Source: a virus
Taxonomy: Duplodnaviria > Heunggongvirae > Uroviricota > Caudoviricetes
Length of the DNA: 6,607 bases
Virus record (IMG/VR): IMGVR_UViG_2531839662_000008
Location: 1-6,607 of that record
Strand: one strand, 5' to 3'
Shown: one piece after another, positions 1-6,607 of the stretch
How positions within the stretch are numbered: the first letter of the stretch is position 1
Layout of the letters: each line of letters opens with the position of its first letter
Position numbers and translations under genes: made by a program
Notes under the pieces: generated by a model
Told to the model about the DNA's origin: nothing
Seen by the model: the letters and a program-made list of their open reading frames with translations, nothing else
The model's database searches: none

Positions 1-1
1 A

Positions 2-646
2 GGGCAAATAAATGAGTTGGTGACTCCGTTGCCGTATGTTTCCAGCGTAAGGAATCTAACAACATCTAATTCTGGTGCTGATACAGAGTCAGATGATAAT
101 TATGCTGAAAGAATAAAACTGTCGCCGGAAAAACTGTCTACAGCAGGGCCGGAGGATTCTTATAAATATTGGACAAGAACAGCCAATCAGAATATAAAAG
201 ATGTGAATGTATATACACCATCGCCCGGAACTGTAGAAATCCGTTCTTTGTTAGAGAACGGAGATATACCTTCTGATGAACTATTGGAGCAGATAAATAG
301 CGTTCTCTCTGCAACTAATATTCGACCATTCACAGATAAAGTTCTTGTTAAGAAACCAGAGAGCATTGAATACGATATAATAATTAAATACTGGATTAAC
401 TCATCGGACAAAAACAGAACAACATTAATTCAAAGTGAGGTTGAGAAAGCTATTGATGAGTATAAACAATGGCAACGTTCGGTTATGGGAAGAGATATAA
501 ATCCAGATGAAATTATTCAACGTTTAAAAAATGCCGGGGCTAAAAGATTAGAAATATCAAGTCCTGTATTTACTGTGGTTGGAGAGACGCAGGTCGCCAG
601 AGAGAGAAATGTAAATTGCCAGTATGCGGGGTTAGAGGATGGCTGA
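2..646 (+). CDS. Baseplate assembly protein J-like (P2 gpJ / Mu gp47 family), C-terminal part; 5' end lies outside the window
   Basis: Reading frame is open from the window start (no stop upstream of the listed start at 17). Translation contains the acidic 'ESDDNYAERI' motif typical of baseplate-J proteins. Stop overlaps the start of the next gene (639 ATG), and the next gene is gpI-like, giving the conserved J-I-fibre order. AT-rich codon usage. Confidence 0.7.
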   Translation, partial: GQINELVTPLPYVSSVRNLTTSNSGADTESDDNYAERIKLSPEKLSTAGPEDSYKYWTRTANQNIKDVNVYTPSPGTVEIRSLLENGDIPSDELLEQINSVLSATNIRPFTDKVLVKKPESIEYDIIIKYWINSSDKNRTTLIQSEVEKAIDEYKQWQRSVMGRDINPDEIIQRLKNAGAKRLEISSPVFTVVGETQVARERNVNCQYAGLEDG

Positions 647-1220
647 TATCTTTAATGTTAGCTTGTTGGATGTTTTACCTCCTAACTTAGCTAGAGATCC
701 CAACGTGATAGCTATGTCGAAAGCTATCGATGATGAACTACAAGCAATTAACAATTTAATATATAAGACAGAAATATATAGCGTTGTTGATAACCTGGAT
801 TCAGTTGTTCTCGATCATTTAGCTTGGCAATGGAATGCTGATACATGGAGGGATAGTTGGCCTGTATCGTTAAAGCGTTCTGTTTTTAAATCAATAATAC
901 GAACAAAGCGAATAAAGGGTACAAGGGCAGCGGTTGAAGATGTAGTAAATAGCTTGGGTGGAGAGGTAAACATAACAGAATGGTTTGAAACATCACCACC
1001 TGGCGAACCATATACAGCCTCAATTGTTGCTTCGATTAACTCTTTTGATGGTGCCGTTCCTTCGAAAGAGATGTTGGAAGATACGTTAAGAAGTATCAAG
1101 AGCGCAAAGTCGGCAAGAACATTATTTACATTTTCGCAAGCAGCCAATGTTTCTGGTGGTGTCGGTATTGTTGGTGCTTGTCAGCCTGTGTCTTATGTAC
1201 GATTAATTGGCGAGTGCTAA
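639..1220 (+). CDS. Phage tail protein I-like (P2 gpI family)
   Basis: 193-aa ORF whose start is translationally coupled to the J-like gene. The segment 'LDHLAWQWNADTWRDSWPVSLKRSV...GTRAAVEDVVNSLGGEVNITEWFETSPPGEPYT' matches my recollection of the gpI pattern (W..W, KR.V, G...A, NVTEW). Positioned between the J-like gene and the fibre gene. Confidence 0.7.
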   Translation: MADIFNVSLLDVLPPNLARDPNVIAMSKAIDDELQAINNLIYKTEIYSVVDNLDSVVLDHLAWQWNADTWRDSWPVSLKRSVFKSIIRTKRIKGTRAAVEDVVNSLGGEVNITEWFETSPPGEPYTASIVASINSFDGAVPSKEMLEDTLRSIKSAKSARTLFTFSQAANVSGGVGIVGACQPVSYVRLIGEC

Positions 1221-1250
1221 TTCGCAATTTGTTAATTCAAGGAATTAAGC

Positions 1251-2147
1251 GTGAGTAAATTATTATTTACGATGACTGACGCCGGGCGTCAGGAGCTGGT
1301 TAATGCCAACAAAACAGGAACAAATAAAGTTGAGATTGTTTCTGTTGGTTTAGGTAGTAGATATTATGTCACGTCAACTTCACAAACAAATATAACAAAC
1401 GAAATAAAACGACTTACCACAATAGGTGGCAAAGTTGTTTCCCCTGATACAATTCATGTAACAGCGAAGGATGATAGTAAAGATGAGTATGTTGTCCATA
1501 CAATAGGATTGTATACGAATAAGGGTACGTTGTTTGCTGTATACTCACAAGAACAAGCAATAATAAATAAAGCATCATCTACTATCGCTTTAATATCAAG
1601 TGATATAGCAATTAAAACTCTTGATACTAAAAATATTACATTTGGTGATATTGAGTTTATTAATCCTCCCGCGACCGAAACTGTTGTTGGGGTTGCAAGA
1701 TTTGCCAATGAACAAGAAATTGATGACGGTACAGATGATTCCCTTGCTGTTTCAGCAAAGCGGCTTAAGCAAGCCATTGTGAAACATGAACAATCACGTA
1801 ATCATCCTGATGCAACTTTAACCTCAAAAGGCTTTGTTCAACTTAGCAGCGCCACCAATAGCACGTCTGAAACGCTTGCTGCGACGCCTAAGGCTGTTAA
1901 GGCAGCATATGACCTGGCTAATGGCAAATACACCGCACAGGACGCTACCACAGCGCGAAAAGGGATTGTTCAGCTCAGTAGTGCCACCAACAGCACGTCT
2001 GAAACGCTAGCAGCAACACCAAAGGCTGTTAAGGCAGCGTATGATCTTGCGGCCGGAAAGGCTCCGTCCAATCACACGCATTCGTGGGAGCAGATAACAA
2101 ATGTGCCTGTAGCTTCACTGACTGTAAGGGGAATAACTGGGGTCTGA
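1251..2147 (+). pseudogene. Tail fibre protein, N-terminal part only; 3' end replaced by a Tn3-family inverted repeat at 2139 (the stop at 2145-2147 lies inside the repeat)
   Basis: GTG start at 1251 with AAGGA 6 nt upstream. N-terminal tail-collar/fibre attachment-type domain, then 'HEQSRNHPDATLTSKGFVQLSSATNSTSETLAATPKAVKAAYDLANGKYTAQDATTARKG' fibre repeats (two copies), then 'APSNHTHSWEQITNVP'. The last codons (LTVRGITGV*) are encoded by the junction and the Tn3 repeat GGGGTCTGA, so the native C-terminus is missing. Confidence 0.75.
1827..2050 (+). repeat. Tandem 132-bp (44-codon) phage tail-fibre repeats, about 1.7 copies
   Basis: 'aaaggctttgttcaacttagcagcgccaccaatagcacgtctgaaacg...' at 1827 recurs as 'aaagggattgttcagctcagtagtgccaccaacagcacgtctgaaacg...' at 1959. 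Encoded peptide repeat is KG[FI]VQLSSATNSTSETLAATPKAVKAAYDLA. Confidence 0.85.
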
Positions 2148-2176
2148 CGCTCAGTGGAACGAAAACTCACGTTAAG
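2139..2176 (+). repeat. Tn3-family (Tn1/Tn2/Tn3-type) 38-bp terminal inverted repeat, outer end at 2139
   Basis: Sequence GGGGTCTGACGCTCAGTGGAACGAAAACTCACGTTAAG matches the Tn3 terminal repeat as I recall it. It is not followed by the bla-proximal interior (GGATTTTGGTCATGAG), so this is probably the tnpA-proximal end. Confidence 0.8.
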
Positions 2177-2223
2177 CAACGTTTTCTGCCTCTGACGCCT
2201 CTTTTAATGGTCTCAGATGTCCT
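2139..2223 (-). mobile_element. Remnant of a Tn3-family transposon (terminal repeat plus about 47 bp of interior, probably the 3' end of tnpA), truncated by IS26
   Basis: Terminal repeat at 2139..2176 followed by 47 bp that run straight into the IS26 left repeat at 2224. A minus-strand reading frame terminates at 2167..2169 inside the repeat, as expected for the tnpA end of Tn3-family elements; that frame continues as antisense into IS26, so only the 2177..2223 part could be tnpA-derived. Confidence 0.65.
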
Positions 2224-3043
2224 GGCACTGTTGCAAATAGTCGGTGGTGATAAACTTATCATCCCCTTTTGCTGATGGAGCTGCACATGAACCCATTCAA
2301 AGGCCGGCATTTTCAGCGTGACATCATTCTGTGGGCCGTACGCTGGTACTGCAAATACGGCATCAGTTACCGTGAGCTGCAGGAGATGCTGGCTGAACGC
2401 GGAGTGAATGTCGATCACTCCACGATTTACCGCTGGGCTCAGCGTTATGCGCCTGAAATGGAAAAACGGCTGCGCTGGTACTGGCGTAACCCTTCCGATC
2501 TTTGCCCGTGGCACATGGATGAAACCTACGTGAAGGTCAATGGCCGCTGGGCGTATCTGTACCGGGCCGTCGACAGCCGGGGCCGCACTGTCGATTTTTA
2601 TCTCTCCTCCCGTCGTAACAGCAAAGCTGCATACCGGTTTCTGGGTAAAATCCTCAACAACGTGAAGAAGTGGCAGATCCCGCGATTCATCAACACGGAT
2701 AAAGCGCCCGCCTATGGTCGCGCGCTTGCTCTGCTCAAACGCGAAGGCCGGTGCCCGTCTGACGTTGAACACCGACAGATTAAGTACCGGAACAACGTGA
2801 TTGAATGCGATCATGGCAAACTGAAACGGATAATCGGCGCCACGCTGGGATTTAAATCCATGAAGACGGCTTACGCCACCATCAAAGGTATTGAGGTGAT
2901 GCGTGCACTACGCAAAGGCCAGGCCTCAGCATTTTATTATGGTGATCCCCTGGGCGAAATGCGCCTGGTAAGCAGAGTTTTTGAAATGTAAGGCCTTTGA
3001 ATAAGACAAAAGGCTGCCTCATCGCTAACTTTGCAACAGTGCC
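2224..3043 (+). mobile_element. IS26 (IS6 family), complete 820-bp copy
   Basis: 14-bp terminal inverted repeats GGCACTGTTGCAAA at 2224..2237 and TTTGCAACAGTGCC at 3030..3043. Internal ORF is the canonical Tnp26 sequence (MNPFKGRHFQRDIILWAVRWYCKYGISYRELQEMLAERGVNVDHSTIYRW...). The flanking 8-mers differ (GATGTCCT vs TTATTGCG), so there is no target-site duplication. Confidence 0.95.
2287..2991 (+). CDS. tnp26: IS26 transposase Tnp26 (234 aa)
   Basis: Translation from ATG 2287 begins MNPFKGRHFQRDIILWAVRW and ends ...GEMRLVSRVFEM, the IS26 transposase with its DDE motif. The listed ORF start at 2269 (MLMELH...) is an upstream in-frame extension; the canonical start is 2287. Confidence 0.93.
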   Translation: MNPFKGRHFQRDIILWAVRWYCKYGISYRELQEMLAERGVNVDHSTIYRWAQRYAPEMEKRLRWYWRNPSDLCPWHMDETYVKVNGRWAYLYRAVDSRGRTVDFYLSSRRNSKAAYRFLGKILNNVKKWQIPRFINTDKAPAYGRALALLKREGRCPSDVEHRQIKYRNNVIECDHGKLKRIIGATLGFKSMKTAYATIKGIEVMRALRKGQASAFYYGDPLGEMRLVSRVFEM

Positions 3044-5108
3044 TTATTGCGGAGCTGGTTATTCCTCCTGAAACGGGCGGATTCTGGATCCGGGAAATTG
3101 GTGTATTTGATGAGCACGGCGATTTAATCGCGGTGGGCAATACTGCCGAAAGTTACAAGCCAGCCGTTGCTGAAGGGTCCGGTCGTGCACAAACATTTCG
3201 CACCATTCTGACCGTATCCAGCACGGCCACCGTGGCGCTTACCGTGGATAACACCATGGTGATGGCCACAGTGGATTACGTGGATGACAAACTGAAAGAG
3301 CATGAACAGTCACGACGTCACCCGGACGCCTCGCTGACCGCAAAAGGCTTTGTTCAACTCAGTAGCGCCACTAACAGCGTGTCTGAAACGCAGGCTGCAA
3401 CGCCGAAAGCGGTTAAGGCCGCATATGACCTGGCTAACGGAAAATATACCGCTCAGGACGCCACGACGGCACGAAAAGGCCTTGTCCAGCTCAGTAGCGC
3501 CACCAACAGCACGTCTGAAACGCAGGCTGCAACGCCGAAAGCAGTAAAGGCCGCGTATGACCTTGCTAACGCAAAATATACCGCTCAGGACGCCACGACG
3601 GCACAAAAAGGGATAGTCCAGCTCAGTAGTGCCACCAACAGCACGTCTGAAACACTGGCCGCGACATCGAAAGCGGTTAAGGCGGTAATGGATGAAACGA
3701 ACAAGAAAGCGCCCTTAAACAGTCCTGCGTTGACCGGAACGCCAACAACGCCAACTGCGCGACAGGGAACGAATAATACCCAAATCGCAAGCACGGCTTT
3801 CGTTATGGCTGCGATTGCCGCCCTTGTAGATTCGTCACCTGACGCACTGAATACGCTGAACGAGTTAGCGGCGGCGCTGGGAAACGACCCGAATTTTGCG
3901 ACCACCATGACTAACGCGCTTGCGGGTAAGCAACCGAAAGATGCCACCCTGACGGTGCTGGCCGGGCTTGCTACTGCGGCAGACAAGTTTCCGTATTTTA
4001 CGGGGAATGATGTCGCCAGCCTGGCAACCCTGACAAAAGTCGGGCGGGATATTCTTGCGAAATCGACCGTTGCTGCCGTTATCGAATACCTCGGTTTACA
4101 GGAAACGGTAAACAGGGCTGGTAACGCCGTGCAAAAAAATGGCGATACCTTGTCCGGTGGGCTTACTTTTGAAAACGACTCAATCCTTGCCTGGATTCGA
4201 AATACTGACTGGGCAAAGATTGGTTTTAAAAATGATGCCGATAGCGATACTGATTCATACATGTGGTTTGAAACAGGCGACAACGGCAATGAATATTTCA
4301 AATGGAGAAGCAAACAAAGCACCACAACAAAAGACCTGATGAATCTTAAATGGGATGCTTTGTCTGTTCTTGTTAAAGCCCTTTTCAGCAGTGAAGTAAA
4401 AATATCGACAGTCAATGCACTGAGGATATTTAATTCATCTTTTGGTGCCATTTTTCGCCGTTCTGAAGAATGCCTGCATATCATCCCTACACGAGAGAAT
4501 GAGGGGGAAAATGGCGATATAGGGCCGCTACGCCCCTTTACGCTTAATCTCAGAACTGGTCGCATAAATATGGGGCATGGTCTGGATGTTACAGGAGATA
4601 TAACAACTAACGCATGGGTGTACGCAAACCGCTTGCAATTAACAGCAGCACAGGCATGTGGATTCATATGCGTGACCAGAATGTTATTTTTGGACGTAAT
4701 GCGGTATCCACTGATGGTGCTCAGGCTTTGCTCCGTCAGGACCATGCCGACCGCAAATTTATGATTGGCGGTCTGGGAAATAAGCAATTTGGCATCTACA
4801 TGATTAATAACTCAAGGACAGCCAATGGCACCGATGGTCAGGCGTACATGGACAATAACGGTAACTGGCTTTGCGGTGCGCAAATTATTCCCGGAAATTA
4901 TGGCAATTTTGACTCACGCTATGTGAGAGATGTCCGACTTGGCACACGTGTTGTTCAATTGATGGCGCGTGGAGGGCGTTATGAAATAGCCGGACACGCA
5001 CTTACCGGATTAAGGATTATTGGTGAAGTTGATGGCGATGATGAAGCTATCTTCAGGCCGATACAAAAATACATCAATGGCATATGGTATAACGTCGCAC
5101 AGGTGTAA
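3044..5108 (+). pseudogene. Tail fibre protein (P2 gpH / P1-Mu S type), 5'-truncated by IS26 and apparently frameshifted (-1) near 4630
   Basis: Coding sequence starts mid-gene directly at the IS26 right end ('..IAELVIPPETGGFWIREIGVFDEHGDLIAVGNTAESYKPAVAEGSGR..' is an internal stretch of gpH-type N-terminal domains). Then three fibre repeats, then 'TAFVMAAIAALVDSSPDALNTLNELAAALGNDPNFATTMTNALAGKQPKDATLTVLAGLATAADKFPYFTGN'. Frame 1 is protein-like up to about 4632 (..NAWVYANR), after which only frame 3 is protein-like (LAINSSTGMWIHMRDQNVIFGRNAV...IPGNYGNFDSRYVRDVRLGTRVVQ...RPIQKYINGIWYNVAQV*), implying a 1-nt deletion. The listed ORF's TTG start at 3031 lies inside IS26 and is not a real start. 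Confidence 0.75.
3343..3690 (+). repeat. Tandem 132-bp tail-fibre repeats, about 2.6 copies, homologous to those at 1827..2050
   Basis: Units begin at 3343, 3475 and 3607 ('aaaggctttgttcaactcagtagcgcc', 'aaaggccttgtccagctcagtagcgcc', 'aaagggatagtccagctcagtagtgcc'). A 35-nt stretch 3619..3653 is identical to 1971..2005. Confidence 0.85.
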
Positions 5109-5111
5109 ATT

Positions 5112-5638
5112 ATGCAGCATTTAAAAAATATTAAGTCTGGAAATCCAAAAACAAAAGAACAATATCAGCTAACAAAGAATTTTGATGTTATCTGGTTATG
5201 GTCCGAAGACGGAAAAAACTGGTATGAGGAAGTGAAAAACTTTCAGCCAGACACAATAAAGATGTTTACGATGCAAATAATATTATTGTCGCCATCACCA
5301 AAGATGCCTCCACGCTTAACCCTGAAGGTTATAGCGTCGTTGAGGTTCCTGATATTACAGCTAATCGTCGTGCTGATGATTCCGGTAAGTGGATGTTTAA
5401 GGACGGAGCTGTGGTTAAACGGATTTATACGGCAGACGAGCAACAACAACAGGCCGAATCACAAAAGGCCGCGTTACTTTCCGAAGCAGAAAACGTTATT
5501 CAGCCACTGGAACGCGCTGTCAGGCTGAATATGGCGACGGATGAGGAACGCGCACGACTGGAGTCATGGGAACGCTATAGTGTTCTGGTCAGCCGTGTGG
5601 ATACGGCAAATCCTGAATGGCCACAAAAGCCTGAATAA
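5112..5638 (+). pseudogene. Tail-fibre assembly chaperone (lambda Tfa / P2 gpG / Mu U family) with an apparent 1-nt deletion at about 5264
   Basis: N-terminus [51 protein letters not shown] closely parallels the intact minus-strand paralogue ([54 protein letters not shown]...). After codon 51 the frame becomes junk; shifting by -1 at 5264 gives [65 protein letters not shown]...PEWPQKPE*, which runs to the stop at 5638. ATG at 5112 lies 3 nt after the fibre stop. Confidence 0.75.
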
Positions 5639-5643
5639 AAATT

Positions 5644-5663
5644 AAGGCCCGATAGCGGGCCTT
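5644..5663. terminator. Bidirectional intrinsic-terminator-like hairpin between the convergent chaperone genes
   Basis: Perfect 8-bp stem AAGGCCCG / CGGGCCTT with a 4-nt loop ATAG. It sits in the 28-bp gap between the stop at 5638 (plus) and the stop at 5667..5669 (minus), with an A-rich tract on one side (TAAAAATT) and a T-rich tract on the other (TTGTTTCATT). Confidence 0.6.
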
Positions 5664-5666
5664 GTT

Positions 5667-6200
5667 TCATTCTGGTTGTTCTGGAAACGTTACTGGCAGG
5701 CTGGAGGTGTCTGTGGATTCGACCTTCTGCGCATAGAGCATCCACTCGGTTAATTTTTGTTTATTCTCGTCGGGAATGATACCCAGCCGTAGCTGTGAGT
5801 CCCATAGCTGGGTTTTATCCCTGACAAGTTGCAACAGGCTTTGCTTTTCATTCTCTGCCTGCTGCCTCTGTTCCTCCTCGGTATAAGTTCGCTTTATCAC
5901 TACGCCATCTTTGAACATCCATTTACCCGAAATATCAGCCCGGCGATTTGCTGTAATATCAGGTAATTCAACGACGCTTGCGCCTTCCGGATTAATTGCT
6001 GAAACATCCTTTTCAATACAAATAATAACGCCGTTATGGTCATAGACCATTTTCAAAGTGTCTGGCTGGAAATTCTTTTGTTCCTCATACCAGTTTTTTC
6101 CATCATCTGAATAAAGCCATTTGATGTTAAATTGCTTTGTTAGCTGGTATTGCTCTTTTGTTTTAGGGTTGCCAGCAGTAATGTTTTTTAAGTGCATCAT
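5667..6200 (-). CDS. Tail-fibre assembly chaperone, alternative copy (Tfa' / U'-like), intact
   Basis: 177-aa ORF. N-terminal 50 aa are highly similar to the plus-strand chaperone, and the C-terminal half is divergent. Start ATG lies 2 nt after the stop of the upstream minus-strand fibre-tip ORF (translational coupling). Confidence 0.8.
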   Translation of the reverse strand: MMHLKNITAGNPKTKEQYQLTKQFNIKWLYSDDGKNWYEEQKNFQPDTLKMVYDHNGVIICIEKDVSAINPEGASVVELPDITANRRADISGKWMFKDGVVIKRTYTEEEQRQQAENEKQSLLQLVRDKTQLWDSQLRLGIIPDENKQKLTEWMLYAQKVESTDTSSLPVTFPEQPE

Positions 6201-6202
6201 CG

Positions 6203-6607
6203 TTAAATACTCCCCGCGTTATACCACGTCCCATTAATGCAATACTGAATTGGCCTTGCCTGAGTTGTATCAATTAATTCATCACGGTTTCCGTTAACTG
6301 AACCCGTAACGACATAACCTGACCTGTCAGACCAGCCGGGGCCATTCCATGTCTGAACAGATGACAGACCGCCAAGGCGAATACCTGTAATAAACCTTGA
6401 GTTACATTCTGCCTGCGTGTATGCACCAACATCTCCCGCAGAGGGTTTGCGGGTCGTGGTGTAAAACTCTGACCAGTTAGCCTCAAATCCATAACCATCA
6501 CGCGCTGAACGATAAAAAATACCGCCGTTCCTGTAATTCACGCGGAACTGTACAGCAGGGCAGCTCCCCGTATTCATATTGAAGTGGAGGATTAATGTCG
6601 ATGCGCC
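6203..6607 (-). CDS. Alternative tail-fibre C-terminal (receptor-binding tip) segment, partial; continues past the right edge of the window
   Basis: Minus-strand frame is open to the window edge (…GASTLILHFNMNTGSC…), so the listed Met at 6577 is internal. The C-terminal end '...RPIQYCINGTWYNAGSI*' parallels the plus-strand fibre end 'RPIQKYINGIWYNVAQV*'; the rest is divergent. Immediately followed by its own chaperone. Confidence 0.7.
   Translation of the reverse strand, partial: GASTLILHFNMNTGSCPAVQFRVNYRNGGIFYRSARDGYGFEANWSEFYTTTRKPSAGDVGAYTQAECNSRFITGIRLGGLSSVQTWNGPGWSDRSGYVVTGSVNGNRDELIDTTQARPIQYCINGTWYNAGSI

What the first reader, a model, noticed from the sequence alone, without database searches (positions are those of the whole stretch)
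2139..3051. IS26 without target-site duplication joins two unrelated tail-fibre genes
The 8 bp flanking IS26 differ (GATGTCCT left, TTATTGCG right). The left flank is a Tn3-family remnant attached to an AT-rich fibre gene; the right flank is the interior of a different, higher-GC fibre gene lacking its first ~100 codons. Both fragments contain an N-terminal attachment-type domain, so they cannot be two halves of one gene. This indicates an IS26-mediated rearrangement (adjacent deletion, inversion, or recombination between IS26 copies) rather than a simple insertion, and implies further IS26 copies elsewhere in the replicon.
Basis: seen in the sequence. Interest (0 to 1): 0.6.

Follow-up and report, generated by a model that had tools for sequence, protein, structure and literature searches.

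The report
IS26 scar joining two phage fibre genes
A copy of the common resistance-associated insertion sequence IS26 sits between the front of a phage-plasmid tail-fibre gene (already hit by a Tn2/Tn3-type transposon) and the back of a different, P2-like prophage tail-fibre gene; this is an ordinary kind of IS26 rearrangement scar that inactivates both genes, and whether the join is real depends on one draft-assembly contig.

Summary
IS26 lies at 2224-3043: 820 bp, perfect 14-bp ends, one private SNP. Its 8-bp flanks (GATGTCCT, TTATTGCG) differ, and each can be traced to a different uninterrupted reference.

- **Left arm (1-2138):** 99% identical to ~48-kb E. coli/Yersinia phage-plasmids (vB_YpM_39). 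Its fibre gene is cut after codon 296 by the terminal 85 bp of a Tn2/Tn3-type transposon (2139-2223, 100% match).
- **Right arm (3044-6607):** 99.4% identical to P2-like prophage P88. It starts at codon 77 of the P88 fibre gene.
- **Not two halves of one gene:** both fragments carry the same homologous collar-repeat region.

The window is the whole contig AFAB02000093.1 of the E. coli 2.3916 draft assembly. A second assembly confirms the fibre-Tn junction but not the IS26-P88 junction. Neither junction occurs in PLSDB or in 5,426 complete E. coli genomes.

The most likely history is Tn2 insertion, then IS26 truncation, then IS26-mediated fusion of phage-plasmid and prophage DNA. About one chance in five remains that the join is an assembly artefact made through a repeated IS26. 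IS26 copies without matching flanks are commonplace, so interest is low.

The parts
1..646 (+). 3' part of the baseplate J gene of the phage-plasmid, cut by the contig end
   Evidence: Pfam Baseplate_J_M/C on the called product. 99.0% identical to Yersinia phage vB_YpM_39.
639..1220 (+). Tail protein I (P2 gpI-like), phage-plasmid type
   Evidence: PF09684. The exact 193-aa protein is listed in about 5,000 index blocks of the collection, mostly with contigs of 20-50 kb.
1251..2138 (+). Codons 1-296 of the phage-plasmid tail-fibre gene (GTG start). The open frame runs on to a stop at 2145-2147 inside the transposon end.
   Evidence: 99.0% identical to vB_YpM_39 over L002 6001-8138; the fibre gene there is 7251-9605. 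Two PF03406 repeats and a sub-threshold PF12571 match. Window 1-2215 is identical to contig NOEZ01000041.1.
2139..2223 (-). Remnant of a Tn2/Tn3-type transposon: 38-bp terminal inverted repeat (2139-2176) plus the last 16 codons and stop of tnpA (2172-2222, minus strand)
   Evidence: 85/85 identical to L013 5399-5483, the end of a tnpA-tnpR-blaTEM-1 element. The translation GHLRPLKEASEAENVA* equals the TnpA C-terminus.
2224..3043 (+). IS26, complete; tnp26 at 2287-2991. One SNP against the common sequence (C at 2438, Tnp26 V51A).
   Evidence: An identical 820-bp variant lies next to an aphA1-like sequence (identified by eye) in metagenome contig L014.
3044..3051 (.). TTATTGCG, the octamer of the P88-type fibre gene next to the IS26 right end (presumed IS26 target)
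   Evidence: P88 reads CAGAACCGCA|TTATTGCG|GAGCTGG at the same point.
3046..5108 (+). P88-type tail-fibre gene H from codon 77 to its stop, broken by a 1-nt deletion (CC to C) at 4631/4632
   Evidence: 99.4% identical to phage P88. PF12571 positions 74-149, three PF03406 repeats and PF21446.
1785..2059 (+). Collar/fibre-repeat module shared by both fibre genes; further direct copies at 3301-3575 (81%) and 3433-3707 (72%)
   Evidence: Exact in-frame matches of 35 bp (1971/3619) and 25 bp (1983/3499).
4075..4139 (.). Left inverted-repeat (crossover) region of the invertible fibre segment; its partner lies beyond the contig end
   Evidence: In P88 the arms L001 5032-5096 and 8072-8136 are inverted repeats, and the second lies next to the DNA invertase gene. 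Mapped to the window by the 1:1 alignment.
5112..5638 (+). Tail-fibre assembly gene (U/tfa), broken by a 1-nt deletion (TT to T) at 5262/5263
   Evidence: With the base restored, the product equals P88 Tfa (175 aa) exactly.
5667..6200 (-). Alternative tail-fibre assembly gene (U')
   Evidence: PF02413. The exact protein is on 118 contigs, some of chromosome size.
6203..6607 (-). 3' part of the alternative fibre C-terminal segment (S'), cut by the contig end
   Evidence: Aligns to the P88 CDS at L001 7162-7905, minus strand.

Best explanation
This is a multi-step mobile-element scar, not a functional unit.

1. A Tn2/Tn3-type (blaTEM-type) transposon inserted into the tail-fibre gene of a ~48-kb phage-plasmid, after codon 296. 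Shown: the junction is present in two assemblies.
2. IS26 came to lie 85 bp inside that transposon, and the rest of the transposon is gone from this locus. Shown.
3. The other end of the same IS26 is joined to codon 77 of fibre gene H of a P88-like, P2-family prophage, at the octamer TTATTGCG. Shown in this contig only.

Inferred: step 3 arose when IS26 fused the phage-plasmid with the replicon carrying the prophage. This could be copy-in transposition into TTATTGCG, or recombination with an IS26 already there. Either way the window would be one of the two junctions of an IS26 cointegrate.

The consequences are loss of function. The left fibre gene ends after 298 codons. The right one lacks the first half of its baseplate-attachment domain. 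I put about 0.75 on 'a real IS26-mediated junction between two distinct phage elements' and about 0.45-0.5 on the cointegrate route specifically.
For: - **IS26 and flanks:** IS26 is intact with unlike flanks, and each flank continues differently in an uninterrupted reference.
- **Left arm origin:** 98.0-99.0% identical to vB_YpM_39 and to circular ~48-kb plasmids, one of which (pP136-7) has an annotated repA. A 100-bp stretch of its fibre gene matches at 100% only on 39-52-kb E. coli plasmids among the listed hits.
- **Right arm origin:** 99.4% identical to P88 along its whole length. Three phage-plasmid fibre genes match it only from 3301 onward, at 83-93%. In the whole-window searches, hits beginning at 3041/3044 were E. 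coli chromosomes, plus an IncC plasmid with a P2-like tail module next to IS26.
- **Overlap:** both fragments carry the same homologous region.
- **Second assembly:** NOEZ01000041.1 (45.4 kb) is identical over window 1-2215, including the fibre-transposon junction.
- **The IS26 SNP is real:** an identical element exists in an unrelated contig.
- **Literature:** more than half of 70 IS26 copies in nine genomes had unmatched flanks, and Tn2-like ISSwi1 was an IS26 hot spot (PMC4471558). Cointegrate routes are described in PMC4196232.
- **Precedents:** IS26-bounded regions in fibre genes are seen in L020, L009 and L010.
Against: - No independent sequence carries the IS26-TTATTGCG-fibre junction: 0 of 5,426 complete E. 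coli genomes, none in PLSDB among the ranked hits, none in IMG/VR.
- The products that cross or follow the junction occur only in this contig.
- Eight predicted products of the reciprocal junctions are absent from a 15-billion-protein collection. This is weak evidence, because contigs usually break at IS26.
- This IS26 variant's transposase is called only once in the assembly. That fits a single copy better than a two-copy cointegrate.
- That both arms are fibre genes in the same orientation is a roughly 1-in-1000 coincidence under random target choice (my estimate), and it remains unexplained.
Confidence: 0.5

Rival explanations
1. Assembly chimera. The strain has at least two IS26 copies, one in the transposon remnant on the phage-plasmid and one in the P88-type fibre gene. 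The draft assembler threaded one contig through the collapsed 820-bp repeat, so the two arms are not physically adjacent.
For: - The window is a whole 6,607-bp contig of a draft assembly.
- The sister assembly breaks exactly 77 nt into the transposon end, as a de Bruijn assembler does at a repeat, and gives no support for the right junction.
- Two single-base deletions in 2-nt runs that frameshift otherwise P88-identical genes are private to this contig. That is compatible with pyrosequencing-type errors.
Against: - Collapsed multi-copy IS elements usually end contigs rather than sit inside them.
- The IS26 here carries a genuine rare SNP, and its transposase variant is called only once in the assembly. 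That fits a single assembled copy.
- The left arm shows 0 differences in 2,215 bp against the independent assembly.
- Two separate IS26 copies each next to a fibre gene would be an even larger coincidence, unless they are the two junctions of one cointegrate.
Confidence: 0.2
2. Real junction left by an IS26 adjacent deletion, or by another secondary deletion, on a single molecule that already carried both fibre genes after an earlier fusion. One IS26 copy remains and there is no reciprocal junction.
For: - The transposase variant is called only once in the assembly.
- Unmatched flanks with a partial gene left behind are the signature of cis intramolecular transposition (PMC4471558).
- Everything of the transposon beyond 85 bp is missing.
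Against: - It still needs a prior step that put plasmid and prophage DNA on one molecule, so it takes more steps than a plain cointegrate.
- The homologous-recombination routes I drew by hand do not place H codon 77 to the right of IS26 (reasoning recorded).
Confidence: 0.15
3. Capture of a prophage segment by the plasmid. An IS26 translocatable unit carrying the P88 fibre 3' part and downstream genes was inserted next to the IS26 already in the phage-plasmid by the targeted conservative route. The plasmid stays a plasmid and gains a second, truncated fibre module bounded by another IS26.
For: - The targeted conservative reaction is strongly preferred over copy-in transposition to a new site (abstract of PMC4676283; see also PMC4196232).
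- An IncC plasmid carries a P2-like tail module next to IS26 (L005).
- An 82-kb derivative of this phage-plasmid family has an IS26-bounded blaTEM/sul region in its fibre gene (L020).
Against: - It needs IS26 first inserted in the chromosomal fibre gene plus a second IS26 downstream.
- No such second IS26 is visible, because the contig ends inside the invertible segment at 6607.
Confidence: 0.12
4. Simple IS26 insertion into one fibre gene, with the 8-bp duplication overlooked or mutated.
For: None beyond the fact that both sides are fibre genes on the same strand.
Against: - The flanks agree at 2 of 8 positions.
- The left flank is transposon sequence, not fibre sequence.
- Both fragments contain the same homologous collar region.
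- Related plasmids have the left gene contiguous with a different 3' part, and P88 has the right gene contiguous with a different 5' part.
Confidence: 0.01

Closest known systems
IS26-mediated replicon reorganisation in Enterobacteriaceae (He et al. 2015, PMC4471558; Harmer, Moran and Hall 2014, PMC4196232)
   Same: An intact IS26 with unlike 8-bp flanks, truncation of a Tn2-like (ISSwi1/blaTEM) transposon, and joining of DNA from different replicons. These are exactly the signatures those papers use to infer cointegrates, deletions and inversions.
   Different: The joined partners here are two phage tail-fibre genes (phage-plasmid and P2-like prophage), not resistance regions. No resistance gene is present in the window, and the partner junction has not been seen.
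CP087535.1, an 82-kb derivative of the same phage-plasmid family (locus L020)
   Same: Same tail module (identical gpI, fibre 5' part 98% identical). IS26 abuts the fibre gene inside the collar repeats, followed by a beta-lactamase gene, a pterin-binding (sul-type) gene and a second IS26.
   Different: The break point and IS26 orientation differ. There is no transposon-end remnant between fibre and IS26, and the other side is a resistance region rather than a second fibre gene.
IS26-truncated fibre genes of P2-like prophages in E. coli chromosomes AVS0947 and KA0011 (L009, L010), and the P2-like tail module next to IS26 on IncC plasmid pC-Ec2-KPC (L005)
   Same: IS26 lies directly against or close to a P88/P2-type fibre gene with the same 83-aa N-terminus. 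The genes are annotated as incomplete.
   Different: The junction positions differ, the 5' part is retained there rather than the 3' part, and no phage-plasmid DNA lies on the other side.
Resistance-carrying phage-plasmids (Pfeifer, Bonnin and Rocha 2022, PMC9600943; P1-like examples, PMC9603915)
   Same: A phage-plasmid that has taken up transposable elements typical of resistance plasmids.
   Different: It belongs to a different phage-plasmid group (P2-like tail, IncFII-type RepA, ~48 kb). Here the insertions destroy an essential virion gene and leave no resistance gene in view.

Membership tests
IS26 (IS6/IS26 family) | 820-bp element with 14-bp perfect terminal inverted repeats GGCACTGTTGCAAA | tested here: met
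   2224-3043; arms 100% complementary.
IS26 (IS6/IS26 family) | Single 234-aa DDE transposase Tnp26, near-identical to reference copies | tested here: met
   ORF 2287-2991. Pfam rve and DDE_Tnp_IS240. 819/820 nt identical to annotated IS26 copies.
IS26 (IS6/IS26 family) | 8-bp target-site duplication flanking a copy that arrived by simple insertion | tested here: not met
   GATGTCCT against TTATTGCG. This defines the history of a copy, not membership. More than half of the IS26 copies surveyed in PMC4471558 lack it.
Tn3 family, Tn1/Tn2/Tn3 (blaTEM) group | 38-bp terminal inverted repeat followed by the 3' end of tnpA | tested here: met
   85/85 identical to the end of a tnpA-tnpR-blaTEM-1 element. 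The encoded C-terminus matches TnpA.
Tn3 family, Tn1/Tn2/Tn3 (blaTEM) group | 5-bp target duplication (candidate TAACT, 2134-2138) at both ends | not testable with these tools
   The other transposon end is absent from the window and from the sister contig.
P2-type tail fibre (gpH-like) | N-terminal tail-collar domain PF12571, then PF03406 repeats | tested here: met
   Right fragment: PF12571 positions 74-149 (94 bits) and three PF03406 repeats. The full P88 protein scores 185 bits.
P2-type tail fibre (gpH-like) | The same architecture in the left (phage-plasmid) fragment | tested here: inconclusive
   PF03406 is clear (two repeats, 140 bits). PF12571 scores only 21.2 bits against a cut-off of 23. 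BLASTP finds no N-terminal similarity to P88.
~48-kb P2-tailed phage-plasmid family (vB_YpM_39, pP136-7, pO145_122715_2) | Left arm collinear and at least 98% identical with circular ~48-49-kb records that carry both a plasmid replication gene and a P2-like tail module | tested here: met
   The sister contig is 45.4 kb. Caveat: the identical gpI also occurs in a chromosomal context next to carAB (L021).
Invertible fibre segment (Cin/Gin/Hin/Pin type) | Inverted crossover repeats flanking alternative fibre C-termini and tfa genes, next to a serine invertase gene | tested here: inconclusive
   The left repeat (4075-4139) and the paired U/U' and S' genes are present. The right repeat and the invertase lie beyond the contig end and are inferred from P88.

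The most novel reading that the evidence does not exclude
IS26 has physically fused a phage-plasmid with a resident P2-like prophage at their tail-fibre genes, in the same orientation. The collar repeats on either side of IS26 share exact, in-frame stretches of 35 and 25 bp. A single homologous crossover there would delete the transposon remnant and IS26. It would leave an intact hybrid fibre gene, with the phage-plasmid attachment domain joined to the P88 receptor-binding part. That is the same mosaic boundary seen in natural members of this plasmid family. If so, this would be an IS-assisted intermediate in host-range module exchange between a chromosomal phage and a phage-plasmid.
Probability: 0.08. 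Interest if true: 0.5.

Novelty: new member of a known kind. Interest (0 to 1): 0.2.

Why it matters
The value is mainly in annotation and quality control. The two 'tail fibre' ORFs here (298 aa and 577 aa) are truncation products, not proteins. The contig should not be used as evidence of linkage until reads are checked.

Biologically it adds one more example of resistance-plasmid elements (a Tn2/Tn3-type transposon and IS26) entering a very common E. coli phage-plasmid family and destroying a virion gene. That would turn the element into a plain plasmid, or fuse it to the chromosome. It does not open a new question.

Tried and rejected
- **Whole structure in databases.** Searched PLSDB, INPHARED phages and 5,426 complete E. 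coli genomes. No listed hit spans IS26 together with both arms; the only records covering about 80% of the window are intact phage-plasmids without the IS26 and transposon remnant.
- **Each junction separately.**
  - A concatenated junction query was swamped by fibre-repeat hits.
  - Short junction queries found no record with the fibre-transposon junction, with the 85-bp-remnant-IS26 junction as one continuous match, or with the IS26-TTATTGCG junction.
  - Exact-pattern scans of IMG/VR found none.
- **A false lead.** Two hits that seemed to extend 7 bp into the fibre sequence were IncX1 resistance plasmids, so this was chance.
- **Reciprocal junction.** I predicted eight ORF products (P88 fibre codons 1-76, or TnpA, read into either IS26 end, with and without duplication). 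None is in the protein collection.
- **Confirming the right junction in the sister assembly.** I looked up frameshift-corrected products. None was found.
- **Literature.** Searches for the strain or assembly accessions found nothing relevant.
- **Expression signals.** A promoter/terminator scan of 1900-3300 found nothing.
- **Homologous-recombination routes.** I considered routes via the collar repeats or the U/U'/S' region to explain why both arms are fibre genes. None reproduces a junction at H codon 77 (hand reasoning, recorded).

Full report
**What the window is**

The 6,607 bases are the whole of contig AFAB02000093.1 of draft assembly GCA_000194535.2. Its proteins are named 'Escherichia coli 2.3916' (EII48575-EII48581). 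All linkage statements below therefore rest on one draft contig.

**Check of the observation**

IS26 occupies 2224-3043. It starts with GGCACTGTTGCAAA, ends with its exact reverse complement, and is 820 bp long. It differs from annotated IS26 copies in five plasmids by one base, C instead of T at 2438, which gives Tnp26 V51A. An identical 820-bp variant lies beside an aphA1-like sequence (identified by eye) in an unrelated metagenome contig, so the SNP is real and not a consensus error.

The outside octamers are GATGTCCT and TTATTGCG. Each continues differently in an uninterrupted reference:
- GATGTCCT|TTGGTCACC in an intact Tn3-like element (L013).
- CAGAACCGCA|TTATTGCG in phage P88.

The missing duplication is therefore genuine.

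**The transposon remnant**

Positions 2139-2223 are 85/85 identical to the tnpA-proximal end of a tnpA-tnpR-blaTEM-1 transposon. That end comprises the 38-bp terminal repeat plus the last 16 codons of tnpA, and the translation GHLRPLKEASEAENVA* equals the TnpA C-terminus.

**Left arm**

Bases 1-2138 are 99.0% identical, without gaps, to Yersinia phage vB_YpM_39, a 49-kb circular genome. They are 98.0-98.7% identical to circular ~48-kb E. coli plasmids; pP136-7 carries an annotated repA. The family is very common: the exact gpI protein of the window is listed in about 5,000 index blocks, mostly with contigs of 20-50 kb.

The fibre gene starts at 1251 and is interrupted after codon 296. The open frame stops 9 nt into the transposon end. 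An independent assembly, NOEZ01000041.1 (45,403 bp), is identical to window 1-2215. It ends exactly 77 nt into the transposon end. That confirms the fibre-transposon junction. I infer that this genome holds another copy of the same transposon end. It says nothing about what lies beyond.

**Right arm**

Bases 3044-6607 are 99.4% identical, over their full length, to P2-like prophage P88, with 20 substitutions and two 1-nt deletions. P88 is an inducible P2-like coliphage (PMC5285337). The match begins 229 nt into the P88 fibre gene, so 76 codons are missing.

Three phage-plasmid relatives match this arm only from 3301 onward, at 83-93%. In the whole-window searches, hits that begin at 3041/3044 were E. 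coli chromosomes. The exception was an IncC plasmid with a P2-like tail module next to IS26.

Downstream lie the standard parts of an invertible fibre segment:
- the left crossover repeat (4075-4139, mapped from P88);
- U (5112-5638);
- U' (5667-6200, minus strand);
- part of S' (6203-6607, minus strand).

The right repeat and the invertase would lie beyond the contig end.

**Are the fragments two halves of one gene?**

No. Left residues 178-270 align with P88 fibre residues 162-254 at 87%. The right fragment spans P88 residues 77-764, so this region is present twice.

Pfam finds PF12571 positions 74-149 and three PF03406 repeats in the right fragment. In the left fragment it finds two PF03406 repeats plus a sub-threshold PF12571 match.

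**Mechanism**

The steps shown are:
1. A transposon end abuts fibre codon 296.
2. IS26 lies 85 bp inside the transposon.
3. The other end of IS26 abuts H codon 77.

The rest is inference. Because the arms derive from a plasmid-type element and a normally chromosomal prophage, the fewest-step history is an IS26 fusion of the two replicons. This could be copy-in transposition into TTATTGCG, or recombination with an IS26 already there. The two routes give the same flank pattern. The window would then be one of two junctions.

This is textbook IS26 behaviour. He et al. found more than half of 70 IS26 copies without matching flanks, and found a Tn2-like element to be an IS26 hot spot (PMC4471558). 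Cointegrate and translocatable-unit routes are described in PMC4196232 and related papers.

Independent examples of IS26 against fibre genes exist:
- an 82-kb derivative of this same plasmid family, with an IS26-bounded beta-lactamase/sul-type region in the fibre gene (L020);
- two chromosomal P2-like prophages.

**Rivals**

- **Assembly chimera through IS26.** This is the main rival. The right junction is absent from 5,426 complete E. coli genomes. It is also absent from the ranked PLSDB hits and from IMG/VR. The sister assembly gave no support for it. Against this rival, the IS26 sits inside the contig. It carries a genuine rare SNP, and its transposase variant is called only once in the assembly.
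- **Single copy.** The same single-copy hint argues somewhat for a deletion-type outcome rather than a persisting two-copy cointegrate.
- **Capture of a prophage segment onto the plasmid** is also possible.
- **Simple insertion** is refuted.

**Unexplained**

Both arms are fibre genes on the same strand. With random targets this is roughly a 1-in-1000 event (my estimate). None of the homologous-recombination routes I drew by hand reproduces the junction at codon 77 (reasoning recorded).

The collar repeats on the two sides share exact in-frame matches of 35 and 25 bp. A crossover there would delete IS26 and make an intact hybrid fibre. The boundary would be the same mosaic boundary seen in natural family members, whose similarity to the right arm starts at 3301. 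This is a possibility, not a finding.

**Verdict**

This is a new instance of a well-known kind of IS26 scar, with loss of function in both fibre genes. Interest is low.

Noticed in passing
window 4631-4632 and 5262-5263: Two 1-nt deletions relative to P88 (CC to C, TT to T) frameshift the fibre gene and the tfa gene. With the base restored, the tfa product equals P88 Tfa exactly. The frameshift products occur only in this contig. They could be sequencing errors or private pseudogenising mutations.
   Followed up: partly
window 2438: This IS26 carries C instead of the usual T (Tnp26 V51A). The identical 820-bp variant lies next to an aphA1-like sequence (identified by eye) in metagenome contig k141_57875 (L014), so it is a real, rare IS26 variant that could serve as a lineage marker.
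   Followed up: partly
window 1971-2005 / 3619-3653 and 1983-2007 / 3499-3523: Exact, in-frame identical stretches of 35 and 25 bp lie in the collar repeats on either side of IS26. A crossover there would remove IS26 and create an intact hybrid fibre gene.
   Followed up: partly
window 1785 (and 3301): There is a sharp mosaic boundary inside the phage-plasmid fibre gene. GC rises from 36% to 50%, and nucleotide similarity to P88/P2-type fibres begins at the HEQSR(N/R)HPDA motif. Three phage-plasmids of this family match the P88-type arm only from 3301 onward.
   Followed up: partly
window 2138/2139; proteins P0004, P0002, P0015: The transposon insertion point coincides with the start of a QLSSATNS repeat unit. 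It also coincides with the end of a 296-aa partial fibre protein found on 19 other contigs of up to 44.5 kb. I could not tell whether those are the same transposon-bearing lineage or ordinary assembly breaks at a shared repeat.
   Followed up: no
L006 10889-10965 (NOEZ01000041.1 end): The sister contig stops exactly 77 nt into the transposon end. This suggests a k=77 graph break and at least one more copy of that transposon end elsewhere in that genome.
   Followed up: no
window 4075-4139 and contig end 6607: The left crossover repeat of the invertible fibre segment is present, but the contig ends inside the segment, about 0.5 kb before where P88 has the right repeat. Inversion heterogeneity or shared prophage sequence may have ended the contig.
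   Followed up: partly
L021 (JACFDQ010000006.1, 324-kb contig) 10001-20582: The identical gpI and the same tail module sit in a chromosomal context, followed by an invertase, Com/Mom-like genes and carAB. This tail module is therefore not confined to plasmids.
   Followed up: no
L018 (UGFE01000007.1, 265-kb contig): A phage-plasmid with repA is embedded in a 265-kb contig. This may be a concatemer artefact of long-read assembly or a cointegrate.
   Followed up: no
L013 5379-5398: In plasmid NZ_CP055120 the same transposon end is inserted into what reads by eye as IS26 sequence (TCTCTCCTCCCGTCGTAACA), the reverse relationship to the window.
   Followed up: no
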